A stretch of 64,000 nt of DNA from the NCBI GenBank assembly GCA_009914755.4, contig CP068257.2:17152001-17216000 (forward strand), in the 5' to 3' direction. Made by a program: the position numbers and the translations under genes. Positions 41,346 through 48,600 of this stretch are shown here, piece by piece; position 1 is the first letter of the stretch, and every line of letters starts with the position of its first letter. Below the pieces are notes generated by a model. That model saw nothing but the letters and a program-made list of their open reading frames with translations. It searched no databases and was not told the DNA's origin. The stretch is from the human T2T-CHM13v2.0 reference genome, Homo sapiens.

Positions 41346-41398
41346 TTTTTTTTTTAATTTCAACTTTTATTTCAGATACAGGTGGCACATGTGCTTGT
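41346..41398 (-). mobile_element. Extreme 3' terminus (about 40 bp plus poly-A) of the older L1, split off by the young L1 insertion
   Basis: 'tttttttttaatttcaacttttatttcagatacaggtggcacatgtgcttgtttc' is the reverse complement of 'gaaacaagcacatgtgccacctgtatctgaaataaaagttgaaattaaaaaaaaa'. This matches the L1PB/L1MA-type 3' end '...aacctgcacatgtaccccctgaatctaaaataaaagttgaaa'. Confidence 0.7.
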
Positions 41399-42285
41399 TT
41401 CTTTTTTATTATTTATTTATTTTTTATTTATTTTATTTTTTATTTTACAGGATACATATGCAGAACGTGCAGGTTTGTTACATAGGTATACATGTGCCAT
41501 GGTGGTTTGCTGCACCTATTGACCCATCCTCTAAGTTCCCTCTGTTCACCCCCCAACCCCAAACAGGCCCTGTTTTGTGTTGTTTCCCCCCATGTGTCCA
41601 TGTATTCTCAACTCCCACTTATGAGTGAGAACATGCGGTGTTTGGTTTTCTGCTTCTTGTTAGTTTGCTGAGGATAATGGCTTCCAGCTTCATCTATGTC
41701 CTTGCAAAGGACATGATCTCATTCCTTTTTATGGCTGCATAGTATTATGGTATATATGTATCACATTTTCCTTATCTAGTCTATCGTTGATGGGCATTTG
41801 GGTTGGTTCCATATCTTTGCTATTGTAAATAGTGCTACAGTAAACATACATGTGCATGTGTCTTTATAGCAGAATGATTTATATTCCTTTGAGTATATAC
41901 TCTGTAATGGAATTGATGGGTCAAATGGTATTGCTGGTTCTAATCCTTGGGGAATTGCCACACCGTCTTCCACATGGGTGAAATAATTTACATTCCCAAC
42001 TGTGTAAAAGCATTCCTATTTCTCCACAGCCTCACCAGCATCTACTATTTCTTGCCTTTTTAATAATCACCATTCTGACTGGCATGAGATGGTATCTCAT
42101 TGTGGTTTTGATTTGGATTTCTTTAATGATTAGTGATGTTGAGCTTTTTTTCATATTTCTGTTGGTGATGTAAATGCCTTATTTTGAGAAGTGTCTGTTC
42201 ATATGCTTTGCCCACTTTTTGATGGAGTTGTTTGGTTTTTTTTCTTGTAAATTTGTTAGAGTTTCTTGTAGATTCCGGATATTAG
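41399..42285 (-). mobile_element. Young LINE-1 (L1PA-like) 3' segment, minus orientation, with a T-rich (TTTAT)n tail
   Basis: T-rich tail 41399-41447, then 'caggatacatatgcagaacgtgcaggtttgttacataggtatacatgtgccatggtggtttgctgcacc...', the reverse complement of the L1 3' end. It continues to 'gattccggatattag', the reverse complement of ORF2 'ctaatatccagaatc'. ORF 41776-41973(-) is an ORF2 C-terminal peptide. Confidence 0.95.
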
Positions 42286-45800: not shown

Positions 45801-48600
45801 CTCTCTAGTTTCTTGAGATGCAAGTTAGATTGTTACTTTGAGATCTTTCTAACTTCTTGATGATGGCATTTAGTCTTTTAAACTTTCCTCCTCACATCGC
45901 TTTAGCTGTATCCCAGCGATTTTGGTAAGCTGTCTTGCGTTTGTTAGTATTTTCACTAATTTCACAAAGTTTTTTTAAAATTTCTGCTTTAATTTTTATG
46001 TACACCCAGAAGTTATTCAGTAGCAAGTTGTTTAATTTCCATATGTAGTTTTGAAAGATCTTCTTGATATTGATTTCTGTTTTTATTGCACTGCGGTCCA
46101 AGAGTTTGATTGGTACGATTACAAAATTTGAATTTATTGACACTTGCTTTATGATTGGGCATGTGGTCAGTCTCAGAATTTGTTCCATATGCAAACAAAA
46201 ATAATTCAAACTCTATAGTTGTTGGGTGGAATGTTCTGTAGATGTGTATTAGAAAGTGCCAAGTTTAAGTCCAGAGCTTCTTTGTTACTTTTCTGCCTCA
46301 ATGATATGTCTAATGCTGTAAGTGGAGTGTTGAAGTTTCCCACTATTGTTGTTGGCTGTCTAAGCCTTTTCATACATCAAAAAAATTGCTTTATGTATCT
46401 GAGTGCTCCAATATTCGGTGTGTATAGATTTAGGATAGTTAAGTATTCTTGTTAATTGTACACTTTATCATTTTGTAATATCCTTCCTTTTCCTTCTAAA
46501 GTGTTATTCATTTTTAGTCTGTTTATCTTATATAAAAATAGCAACTCCTGCTTTTTTCTGTTTTTCATTTGCATAATAGATCTTTTTTCATCCCTTTATT
46601 TTGAGCCTGTGGGTATCAATACATGTGAAATATGTCTCTTGAAGACAGCAGATGGTGAGGTCTTGTCTTTTGATTCAGCTTGCTATTTTGTCTTTGAAGG
46701 GGGGCATTTAGCCCATTTGCATTCAGCGTTAGTATTGATATGTGAGATTTTGATTCTGTCATGTTGTTAGCTGGTTGTTATGTAGGCTTGATCATGTAGT
46801 TGCTTTGTTTGTGTGCTATGTGCTTAAGTATGATTTTGTGGTAGCAGGTGTCCTTCTATCAATTCCATATTTAAGACTTCTTTAAAAACTTCTGGTAAGG
46901 ATGGTCTAGTTGAAGTAAATTCCCTCAGAATTTGTTTGTCTTAAAACAATTTTATTTATCTTTCACTTCCAAAGCTTAGCTTGGCAGGATATGACATTCT
47001 TGACTGAATTTCTTTTCTTCAAGGACAACTGAAAATAGGCCCCCAATCTCTTCTGGCTTATAAGGTTTCTGCTGAGAGGTCTTCTACTAGCCTGATGGAG
47101 TTCCCTCTGTAAGTAACCTGCTCCTTCCTTCTAGCTGCCTTTAATTTTTTTTTCCACTGACCTTAGTGAATCTGATGACTATGTTCCTTTGTTATAGTAA
47201 TCTTGTATAACATCTAGTTGTGGTTTTCTGTATTTCCTGAATTTTCATGTCATTCTCTCTAGAGAGATTAGAAAAGTTTTATGGACTATCTCCTCAAATA
47301 TATTTTCCAAATTGCTTATTCTCTTTCCTTCTCTGTCAATAATGTCAATGAGTCATAGATTTTTCTCTTTACAAAATTTCGTATTTTCAGAGGTTTTATT
47401 CATTTTTTTAAATTCTTTTTTCTTTATTTTGTCAGAATGAGTTGATTCCAGGAACTAGTCTTCAAGCTCCTGAGATTCTTTTCTCAGCTTGTCTCTTCTG
47501 CCATTAATACTTCTGATTGAATTATAAAATGATTGTATTGAATTTTTCAGCTGTATAAGTTCAGTTTGCTTCTTTCTTGAAATGGCTATTTCAGCTCTTG
47601 GATCATTTTACTGAATTTCTTGATTTCTTTGGATTGGGTTTCAACTTTCTCCTGAATCTCCATTAAATTTTTTGCCCTCCAGATTCTGTATTCTGTCTGC
47701 CATTTTAGACTACTTACAGACCATTGATGATGTTCTGGTAAACTTGGATTAAGGGGACACTCTGGCCTTTTGAACCGCCTAAGTTCTTGTGCTAATTCTT
47801 TCTCATCTTGGAGGGTTGTTGTTCCTTTAATTGTGGTGTAATTTAATTACAGTCAGTTGGCTTTGTTTATGGATGTTTCTAGAGGGCTAAAGCTCTGTAT
47901 GTGGTCTTTATTTATGGCTGAATTCTTACCCTTGGTTTCATGGGTCAGTATATTAGCAAAATATTTTTGGTGTTGTAGTTTGGGCAACTATCCAGCAGAT
48001 GGCTATCTAGAGTAACTGCCAATAGGTAAGTTCTTACTCAACCATGTGGCTCCTTTGTATTTCCTGGGTTTGCAGCTGTTCTCTGCAGTGAGGTGGGGGA
48101 GAGAGGTTACACTCTCACCAGGTATGCTCCTGGGCATTGGGGAAGTCCCCTCGGATCACTGGCACTGTGCTTGGGAATTTATTTTGCTCCAAAAGTGGAT
48201 ATTCTGGGGTGTATTTCCTTGAGCAGAGGCTGGGGCAGGAAGATAGGCCACACCATTTCTGGACAGGCTCTCCTCCCCAGGAACCATTCAGGGCTGGGAA
48301 CTAGCATTAGCATTTGGGTATGTTGCACAGTGTTCCCAGCTTCCTCCTTCTTCAGACTCAGTGTCTGTGTCATGGTTCCATATATTCTTGGTGTTTTCTC
48401 TCTGAAGATCCATCCAAATTATGTTGGTTTACCTTTTGATCTCTCTTGATGGGAGCAGCATTTTCTGGCTGCATCTAGTTGTTGGCCATCTTGTCCCTCT
48501 AGCACTGGGAATTTGATTGTGAGCTAGATTTAGTCCCTCACAACAAGCTGCATGGAATCTAGAGGGGAAAATAAACTGGAATGCCAAGAGTTATGATAAA
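42836..48600 (-). mobile_element. Older LINE-1 (L1PB/L1PA-old-like), near full length (~5.8 kb), minus orientation
   Basis: Continuous reverse-complement L1 from the 3' UTR ('...gggtactgtgcttactagctgagtgatggg' reverse-complemented at about 42840-42900). It runs through ORF2: ORF 44815-45225(-) gives '...[59 protein letters not shown]...', the reverse-transcriptase core, and ORF 45892-46209(-) is the endonuclease region. It then passes through ORF1-like sequence to 5'-UTR-like sequence at about 48000-48600. It contains many stops and frameshifts. Confidence 0.85.

What the first reader, a model, noticed from the sequence alone, without database searches (positions are those of the whole stretch)
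41346..48600. Nested LINE-1 event: a twin-primed young L1 inserted about 40 bp from the 3' end of an older, near full-length L1
The older minus-strand L1 (42836 to about 48600, roughly 5.8 kb including 5'-UTR-like sequence) is separated from its own last ~40 bp and poly-A (41346-41398) by a 1.4-kb young L1 (41399-42835). The young element consists of a minus-oriented 3' segment (41448-42285) joined to a plus-oriented ORF2 segment (42286-42835). In L1 coordinates the two segments are contiguous: 'catctgacag' | 'ctaatatcc...'. This is the signature of twin priming during target-primed reverse transcription. Two generations of L1 activity used the same site.
Basis: seen in the sequence. Interest (0 to 1): 0.55.

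Follow-up and report, generated by a model that had tools for sequence, protein, structure and literature searches.

The report
Twin-primed L1 nested in older L1

Summary
An older minus-strand LINE-1 runs from its poly-A at 41346 to its true 5' end at about 48499, not 48600. It is split 41-48 bp before its poly-A by a 1.44-kb younger L1.

The younger element has two abutting pieces. The non-inverted piece (42285 to about 41422, minus strand) covers ORF2p residues 1049-1275, the 3'UTR and an A-rich tail. The inverted piece (42284-42834, plus strand) covers ORF2p residues 866-1047.

On a real full-length L1 used as a ruler, the pieces map to 4575-5123 and 5129-6027, so only 5 nt are missing between them. 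The inverted piece has no 3' end or poly-A of its own. One 7-8 bp target-site duplication (AAGAAAC in L1 sense) flanks the composite. Both pieces are equally diverged (7.2% and 8.8%) from matched older L1PA copies.

This is the textbook twin-priming signature, seen in about 20% of L1 insertions. "Young" is only relative: the insert is decayed and probably tens of millions of years old. A second twin-primed L1 lies at 28.5-30.3 kb. The kind is already known and the interest is low.

The parts
41334..41345 (-). Candidate target-site duplication of the old L1, copy next to its poly-A (+ strand GCACTGAAAATC)
   Evidence: Read. It matches GCACTGGGAATT at 48502-48513 in 9 of 12 positions, and all mismatches are transitions. 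Both copies directly abut the element ends. A broad local-alignment scan of the flanks was not significant, so this rests on position.
41346..41355 (-). Poly-A tail of the old L1 (10 T on the + strand)
   Evidence: Sequence read. It aligns to the poly-A of other L1 3' ends.
41356..41396 (-). Last ~41 nt of the old L1 3'UTR, cut off from the body by the younger insertion
   Evidence: it aligns to the terminal ~50 nt of three L1 3' ends (0-4 of 1000 shuffles reach the score); it is colinear with intact copies L072, L091, L086, L069, L095 and L062.
41397..41403 (-). Target-site duplication of the younger L1, copy after its A-tail (+ strand GTTTCTT; AAGAAAC in L1 sense). It is also old-L1 sequence.
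   Evidence: Intact relatives carry this motif once (GTAAGAAACCTGCAC in L091, GGAAACCTGCAC in L070).
41404..41447 (-). A-rich tail of the younger L1, (TAAA)n-like. The boundary with the L1 body is fuzzy between 41422 and 41447.
   Evidence: The alignment to the L1 3' end runs into it down to 41422.
41448..42285 (-). Non-inverted (poly-A-primed) piece of the younger L1: ORF2p residues 1049-1275 plus the 3'UTR. L1 nt 5129-6027 on L011.
   Evidence: It is 85.4% identical to L1HS in ORF2 and 8.8% from a consensus of 14 older L1PA copies.
42284..42834 (+). Inverted (internally primed) piece of the younger L1: ORF2p residues 866-1047. L1 nt 4575-5123 on L011. It shares 2 nt (AG, 42284-42285) with the non-inverted piece.
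   Evidence: It is 88.8% identical to L1HS and 7.2% from a consensus of 12 older L1PA copies. It has no poly-A or L1 3' end of its own.
42835..42844 (-). Target-site duplication of the younger L1, copy at the inverted end (+ strand GTTTTCTT followed by AT). It is also old-L1 sequence.
   Evidence: (sequence printout).
42845..43010 (-). 3'UTR of the old L1 upstream of the insertion site
   Evidence: colinear alignment to other L1 3'UTRs.
43011..46762 (-). Decayed ORF2 of the old L1 (ORF2p residues 1-1275, with many stops and frameshifts)
   Evidence: tblastn; 75.5% DNA identity to L011 over 3.7 kb.
46827..47278 (-). C-terminal half of ORF1 of the old L1 (ORF1p residues 185-336). The N-terminal half was not detectable.
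47279..48499 (-). Remainder of ORF1 and the 5'UTR of the old L1. The 5' terminus is GAGGGACAAGATGGCC... at 48499-48484.
   Evidence: it aligns to positions 0-2 onward of three full-length L1 copies (L011, L015, L031; 0, 2 and 11 of 300 shuffles reach the score).
48502..48514 (-). Candidate target-site duplication of the old L1, copy at its 5' end (+ strand GCACTGGGAATTT)
   Evidence: Read. See the first part.

Best explanation
Two rounds of LINE-1 retrotransposition hit the same spot.

First event. A full-length L1 of an old primate or eutherian family inserted on the minus strand (41346-48499).

Second event. Much later, an L1 of an older L1PA-type subfamily inserted by target-primed reverse transcription into the A/T-rich 3'UTR of that element, 41-48 bp before its poly-A.
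- The L1 endonuclease nicked the window + strand at a T-rich/A site (…GTTTCTT/AT…).
- The T-rich 3' end primed on the RNA's poly-A. Reverse transcription copied the RNA back to L1 nt ~5129, giving the non-inverted piece.
- After second-strand cleavage 7-9 bp away, the other 3' end primed inside the same RNA at nt ~5123. It copied back to nt ~4575, giving the inverted piece.
- The two cDNAs were joined at a 2-nt microhomology (AG). Five nt of L1 were lost, and a 7-8 bp target-site duplication was left.

What is shown: the anatomy, the L1 coordinates, the duplication, and the equal divergence of the two pieces.

What is inferred: the order of nicks and priming steps, taken from the published twin-priming model.

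Neither element has an intact reading frame. Both are inert relics.
For: - ORF2p coordinates of the two pieces: 866-1047 on the + strand and 1049-1275 on the - strand.
- Nucleotide mapping with a 5-nt gap, on two rulers: a recalled L1HS reference and a real full-length L1, L011. The recalled reference's coding part translates exactly to PDB-verified ORF2p, and it is 98-99% identical to independent copies.
- The geometry is the one twin priming predicts. The flank-side end of the inverted piece (42834) abuts, in L1 coordinates, the junction-side end of the non-inverted piece (42285).
- The inverted piece ends inside ORF2 with no poly-A, so it cannot be a separate standard insertion.
- The duplicated motif AAGAAAC is single-copy in intact relatives.
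- Divergence from matched older L1PA copies is 7.2% (39/544) and 8.8% (59/669), which is not significantly different.
- Removing the insert restores a colinear L1 3' end.
- Literature. [quoted passage not shown] 5' inversions occur in 18-22% of L1 insertions, and 46% have the two cDNA ends within 20 bp. Germline medians are 751 bp inverted and 571 bp non-inverted (PMC12016303). Here the pieces are 551 bp and about 840-860 bp.
Against: - The target-site duplication is short, T-rich and imperfect (GTTTCTT vs GTTTTCTT), so it is weak on its own.
- There is no clear microhomology between the target 3' end and the internal priming site.
- Against young L1PA copies the minus piece looks more diverged than the plus piece (private changes 8.2% vs 4.2%, p = 0.005). 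This traces to 17 ancestral states shared with the old L1, 12 of them clustered at L1 5237-5389. The difference disappears against older copies.
- No empty-site allele or outgroup locus could be examined.
Confidence: 0.93

Rival explanations
1. Two independent L1 insertions happened to land head-to-head: a 5'-truncated minus-strand L1 and a separate plus-strand L1 fragment.
For: L1s often insert into L1s. The minus piece shows more private changes than the plus piece against young L1PAs.
Against: - The plus piece ends inside ORF2 (L1 ~5123) with no 3'UTR, poly-A or duplication of its own. A standard insertion always carries the 3' end.
- The L1 coordinates of the two pieces abut within 5 nt. 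For random breakpoints in a 6-kb element, the chance of falling within +/-20 nt is below 1% (inference).
- Divergence from matched copies is equal.
- A single duplication pair brackets both pieces.
Confidence: 0.02
2. A single 1.4-kb 5'-truncated L1 inserted normally, and its 5' 550 bp was later inverted by a DNA rearrangement.
For: The sequence alone cannot tell when the inversion arose. There is a 2-nt overlap at the junction and a 5-nt loss.
Against: One inversion breakpoint would have to coincide exactly with the element's 5' boundary next to the target-site duplication. No inverted repeats that could mediate such an event are evident there. 5' inversions of exactly this form arise during de novo retrotransposition at about a 20% rate (PMC12016303).
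Confidence: 0.03
3. Dual priming or template switching: the two cDNAs were copied from two different L1 RNA molecules at the two nicks.
For: It gives the same overall architecture (PMC2837659 discusses dual priming). The two pieces differ slightly in apparent divergence.
Against: Dual priming as described starts both cDNAs on poly-A tails, but the inverted piece here starts inside ORF2. The near-exact continuity of coordinates (5-nt gap) and the equal divergence from matched copies are most simply explained by one RNA.
Confidence: 0.02

Closest known systems
Twin-primed (5'-inverted) L1 insertions. Model of Ostertag and Kazazian 2001, as described in PMC2837659 and quantified in PMC12016303.
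   Same: - Two inverted fragments of one L1 inside one target-site duplication pair.
- Poly-A only on the non-inverted piece.
- Small internal loss (5 nt) and 2-nt microhomology at the junction.
- T-rich/A target.
- Piece lengths (about 0.55 and 0.85 kb) and total length (1.4 kb) are close to the published germline medians.
   Different: Nothing substantive. The duplication is at the short end of the usual range (7-9 bp against a median of 13), and no microhomology is visible at the internal priming site.
The other twin-primed L1 in this same window (28474-30289)
   Same: Same architecture: a minus non-inverted piece (L1 4356-6008) plus a plus inverted piece (L1 4263-4338), shown.
   Different: - Its inverted piece is only about 80 bp and the gap is 17 nt.
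- Its duplication is long and clear (16 bp, 15/16 identical).
- It has a 5-nt microhomology (CTATA) at the internal priming site.
- It sits in non-L1 DNA next to an Alu.
- It comes from a somewhat younger L1PA subfamily.
Nested L1-in-L1 insertions in general
   Same: A younger L1 splits an older one. Removing the insert and one duplication copy restores the host element. Insertions are reported to lie preferentially within reference elements of their own type (PMC12016303).
   Different: None.

Membership tests
LINE-1 (L1) retrotransposon | Encodes ORF2p (endonuclease plus reverse transcriptase) homologous to human L1 ORF2p | tested here: met
   Old L1: ORF2p residues 1-1275. Younger L1: residues 866-1047 and 1049-1275, with E about 1e-97 and 4e-31 against PDB 8uw3/8c8j.
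LINE-1 (L1) retrotransposon | ORF1p upstream of ORF2 (full-length elements) | tested here: met
   Old L1: ORF1p residues 185-336 at 47278-46827, 64 nt upstream of ORF2. The N-terminal half was not detected.
LINE-1 (L1) retrotransposon | 3' poly-A or A-rich tail directly followed by a target-site duplication | tested here: met
   Old L1: T10 at 41346-41355. Younger L1: A-rich tail at 41404-41447. The duplications are listed under parts. The old element's duplication is degenerate, about 10 of 13 positions.
LINE-1 (L1) retrotransposon | Full-length 5' terminus (…GGAGCCAAGATGGCC… start of the 5'UTR) | tested here: met
   Old L1 48499-48433 aligns from positions 0-2 of full-length copies L011, L015 and L031.
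Twin-primed (5'-inverted) L1 insertion | Two directly abutting fragments of the same L1 in opposite orientation | tested here: met
   The junction is at 42284-42286.
Twin-primed (5'-inverted) L1 insertion | The flank-side end of the inverted piece is adjacent (small gap or overlap) in L1 coordinates to the inner end of the non-inverted piece | tested here: met
   L1 5123 and 5129 on L011, a 5-nt gap. The gap is the same on the L1HS reference. In PMC12016303, 46% of such insertions are within 20 bp.
Twin-primed (5'-inverted) L1 insertion | Only the non-inverted piece carries the L1 3' end and poly-A | tested here: met
   The plus piece ends at …CTGACA inside ORF2 and is followed directly by the duplication.
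Twin-primed (5'-inverted) L1 insertion | One target-site duplication pair flanks the whole composite, and the target resembles the L1 endonuclease site | tested here: met
   AAGAAAC is duplicated here and single-copy in intact relatives. The nick context on the + strand is GTTTCTT/AT or CTTAT/AA, which resembles TTTT/A loosely.
Twin-primed (5'-inverted) L1 insertion | Both pieces have the same age and source subfamily | tested here: met
   7.2% and 8.8% from a consensus of matched older L1PA copies, not significantly different. Identities to copies carrying both regions are similar. An apparent excess against young L1PAs is explained by clustered ancestral states.
Twin-primed (5'-inverted) L1 insertion | Arose in one step: empty site in outgroups, no intermediate allele | not testable with these tools
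   No primate genome alignments were available. An exact-ORF look-up across the junction found nothing.
Named L1 subfamilies (L1PA-n for the insert, L1PB or old L1PA type for the host) | Diagnostic positions of the Repbase/Dfam consensus | not tested
   No repeat library was available. From memory the insert resembles roughly L1PA10-13 and the host an L1PB or L1PA15-17 type 3' end. This is a lead only.

The most novel reading that the evidence does not exclude
The most novel reading not excluded concerns an inverted repeat. The inverted 550-bp ORF2 piece lies about 0.9 kb from the homologous, oppositely oriented ORF2 stretch of the full-length host L1 (74% identity, 42288-42813 vs 43699-44219). 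If the host L1's 5'UTR promoter or a surrounding gene reads through the region, the transcript could form imperfect double-stranded RNA, giving an editing or innate-sensing substrate. Nothing here tests transcription, and 74% identity makes a poor duplex.
Probability: 0.02. Interest if true: 0.25.

Novelty: already known. Interest (0 to 1): 0.08.

Why it matters
It matters little beyond annotation. It is a clean worked example of twin priming and of L1-in-L1 nesting, and it shows that the first-stage reader can recognise the pattern from raw sequence.

In practice the two oppositely oriented fragments should be annotated as one insertion event, and the 41-bp orphan at 41356-41396 as the tail of the 5.7-kb host element. 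Counting them separately would inflate the number of events.

Tried and rejected
- Exact-ORF look-up of a junction-spanning ORF (41389-41628) in public assemblies, to find orthologous or allelic loci: nothing on record.
- Look-up of the 136-aa ORF in the old L1: it found only an 892-bp human-gut-metagenome contig. That contig is 100% identical to window 44584-45363, and its first ~115 nt are chimeric. This supports a human origin but gives no outgroup.
- Rfam scan of the whole window: no family reached threshold.
- Ostertag and Kazazian 2001 (PMC311219) and Khan et al. 2006 (PMC1356131) are not held. The mechanism is therefore cited through PMC2837659 and PMC12016303, and no subfamily consensus was available.
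- The first collection scan (genome contigs) returned only young L1PA/L1HS contaminant copies. These validated the reference but were too young to test whether the two pieces share a subfamily. A second scan with a pattern carrying an ancestral state supplied older copies.
- The hypothesis that the two pieces differ in age was raised (p = 0.005) and rejected.
- A longer alternative duplication for the old L1 (TTTGGATAA… at 41318 vs 48670) was rejected. 106 of 500 shuffles reach its score, and the L1 5' terminus maps to 48499.
- The L1 3' fragment at 13188-13660 was tried as a comparator for the old 3' end but belongs to a different family.
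Full report
**What is in the sequence**

The window is primate DNA. It holds ten Alu copies. A 780-nt stretch of the decayed old L1 is 100% identical to a contaminant contig from a human gut metagenome. It is therefore almost certainly human.

A tblastn search used human L1 ORF1p and ORF2p. I first checked their sequences against solved structures: ORF2p aligns 1-1275 to 8uw3_A, and ORF1p aligns to 2yko and 6fia. The search finds four L1 elements in the window. 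Two of them make up the finding.

**The younger element**

The plus-strand stretch 42286-42835 translates with two stops to ORF2p residues 866-1041 (E about 1e-97, 84% identity). After a 1-nt insertion it continues to about residue 1047.

The minus-strand stretch 42285-41611 matches ORF2p 1049-1275 through several frameshifts. The 3'UTR and a (TAAA)n-like A-rich tail follow, down to about 41404.

I mapped both pieces at the nucleotide level on two rulers.
- The first is an L1HS 3' reference written from memory. Its coding part translates exactly to the PDB-verified ORF2p. It is 98-99% identical to independent L1 copies, and up to 100% in the 3'UTR. On it the pieces map to 4586-5129 and 5135-6031.
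- The second is a real full-length L1, locus L011, found as contamination in a bacterial assembly. On it the pieces map to 4575-5123 and 5129-6027.

Both rulers give the same result: five nucleotides (AAGGG) are missing. At the inversion junction the two pieces share 2 nt (AG, 42284-42285).

The geometry is the one the model requires. The end of the inverted piece that touches the flank (42834) is the one adjacent, in L1 coordinates, to the end of the non-inverted piece at the internal junction (42285).

**Is it one event?**

The inverted piece stops inside ORF2 and has no 3'UTR, poly-A or duplication of its own. It therefore cannot be an ordinary separate insertion.

A first comparison raised a doubt. 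Against L1HS and the other L1PA copy in the window, the minus piece has more private substitutions than the plus piece (55/671 vs 23/544, p = 0.005). However, 17 of those 55 are states shared with the old host L1, and 12 of them cluster at L1 5237-5389. They are ancestral subfamily characters, not decay.

To test this I fetched other copies. The 53 L1-bearing contigs from bacterial genome assemblies were all young L1PA/L1HS. A second scan with a pattern carrying one ancestral state returned 41 older copies from metagenome contigs.
- Copies that span both regions are about equally similar to the two pieces. These copies too are usually less like L1HS in the second region than in the first.
- Against leave-one-out consensuses of 12-14 such copies, the plus piece differs at 39/544 sites (7.2%) and the minus piece at 59/669 sites (8.8%). 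This is not significantly different, and it lies within the range of the other copies.

So the two pieces have the same source type and the same age.

**Target site**

On the + strand, GTTTCTT (41397-41403) precedes the T-rich tail, and GTTTTCTT followed by AT (42835-42844) follows the inverted piece. In L1 sense the duplicated motif is AAGAAAC. It may extend to ATAAGAAAC, with the start hidden in the A-tail.

Intact relatives of the host carry the motif once, for example GTAAGAAACCTGCAC in L091. The duplication is therefore real, although it is short.

The implied first nick is …GTTTCTT/AT… or …CTTAT/AA…. This is a T-rich/A site loosely like the endonuclease consensus TTTT/A.

**The host element**

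ORF2p 1-1275 lies at 46762-43011 and ORF1p 185-336 at 47278-46827. DNA identity to a modern L1 is about 75% over 3.7 kb.

The 53-nt piece left of the insert (41346-41398) aligns to the last ~50 nt plus poly-A of three L1 3' ends (0-4 of 1000 shuffles reach the score). I then rebuilt the empty site from the right piece, one duplication copy and the left piece. This reconstruction aligns colinearly through the junction to the poly-A with uninterrupted copies L072, L091, L086, L069, L095 and L062. The insertion point is 41-48 bp from the host's poly-A.

The host's 5' end is GAGGGACAAGATGGCC… at 48499. It aligns from positions 0-2 of three full-length L1s.

A degenerate duplication abuts both ends: GCACTGAAAATC at 41334-41345 and GCACTGGGAATT at 48502-48513. 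This is suggestive only.

**Mechanism**

[quoted passage not shown] It also fits the statistics in PMC12016303.
- 5' inversions occur in 18-22% of L1 insertions.
- 46% have the two cDNA ends within 20 bp.
- The germline median total length is 1.36 kb.

The order of nicking, the internal priming at about nt 5123 and the microhomology joining are inferred from that model. They are not shown here.

The rivals are two independent insertions, a later inversion, or two RNA templates. Each is disfavoured for the reasons given under rival explanations. Only outgroup loci could exclude the second one outright.

**Age**

'Young' is relative. The insert is 11-15% from L1HS and 7-9% from a mixed consensus of similar copies. 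It carries many stops and frameshifts. At commonly used primate neutral rates of about 0.2% per million years (my knowledge, not tested here), that means tens of millions of years. The subfamily names I would guess from memory (about L1PA10-13 inside an L1PB or old L1PA type) were not tested.

**Verdict**

The observation and the interpretation are both correct. The phenomenon is common and well described. Novelty: already known. Interest: low.

Noticed in passing
window 28474-30289: A second twin-primed L1. The non-inverted piece is 28528-30195 (-), L1 4356-6008. The inverted piece is 30198-30276 (+), L1 4263-4338, leaving a 17-nt gap. It has a 16-bp target-site duplication: CTATATCCCTTTCATT at 28474-28489 and CTATATCCCCTTCATT at 30274-30289. 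A 5-nt microhomology (CTATA) sits at the internal priming site. The element lies immediately right of an Alu (28164-28444)..
   Followed up: partly
window 13188-13660 (+): 3' fragment of a much older L1 (ORF2p 1190-1275 at 52% identity) with a different type of 3'UTR. It was unusable as a comparator for the host element.
   Followed up: partly
loci L002-L054 (genome contigs): 53 contigs deposited in bacterial or archaeal genome assemblies (Streptomyces, Mycobacterium, Psychrobacter and others) carry primate L1 sequence 95-99% identical to L1HS. Three of them show the L1 5' terminus (L011, L015, L031). This is host-DNA contamination of those assemblies.
   Followed up: partly
locus L001 1-115: The human-gut-metagenome contig matching the old L1 is 100% identical to window 44584-45363. 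Its first ~115 nt come from a different L1 copy, so it is an assembly chimera between repeat copies.
   Followed up: yes
L1 nt ~5237-5389 (window 42180-42030 in the younger L1): 12 of the 17 ancestral states that the insert shares with the old host L1, but not with younger L1PA copies, fall within about 150 nt of ORF2 (around residues 1083-1133). This suggests a burst of change or recombination in that segment during L1PA evolution.
   Followed up: partly
locus L077 ~925-1000: A metagenome contig joins L1 ORF2 sequence (…GGTGATTATTAAAAAGTCAGGAAACAG) directly to L1 5'UTR position ~19. It could be a nested insertion or an assembly chimera.
   Followed up: no
locus L072 391-412 (+) and 4480-4501 (-): The same 22-nt L1 pattern occurs twice in opposite orientation on one 4.9-kb contig. 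In one search both strands gave the identical best alignment (same score 227, same coordinates), as expected for an inverted duplicate.
   Followed up: no
window 5054-5656 (-) and 6698-7282 (-): Two long ORFs share a peptide motif (…GQF.KERGLM.NSQ.H.AGEASQSWQKGRRSK…). They are presumably two copies of an interspersed repeat in a relatively GC-rich stretch.
   Followed up: no
window, ten sites (e.g. 1175-1451, 8496-8757, 28164-28444, 37314-37592): Ten Alu copies, 74-93% identical to an Alu consensus written from memory. They confirm the primate origin.
   Followed up: partly
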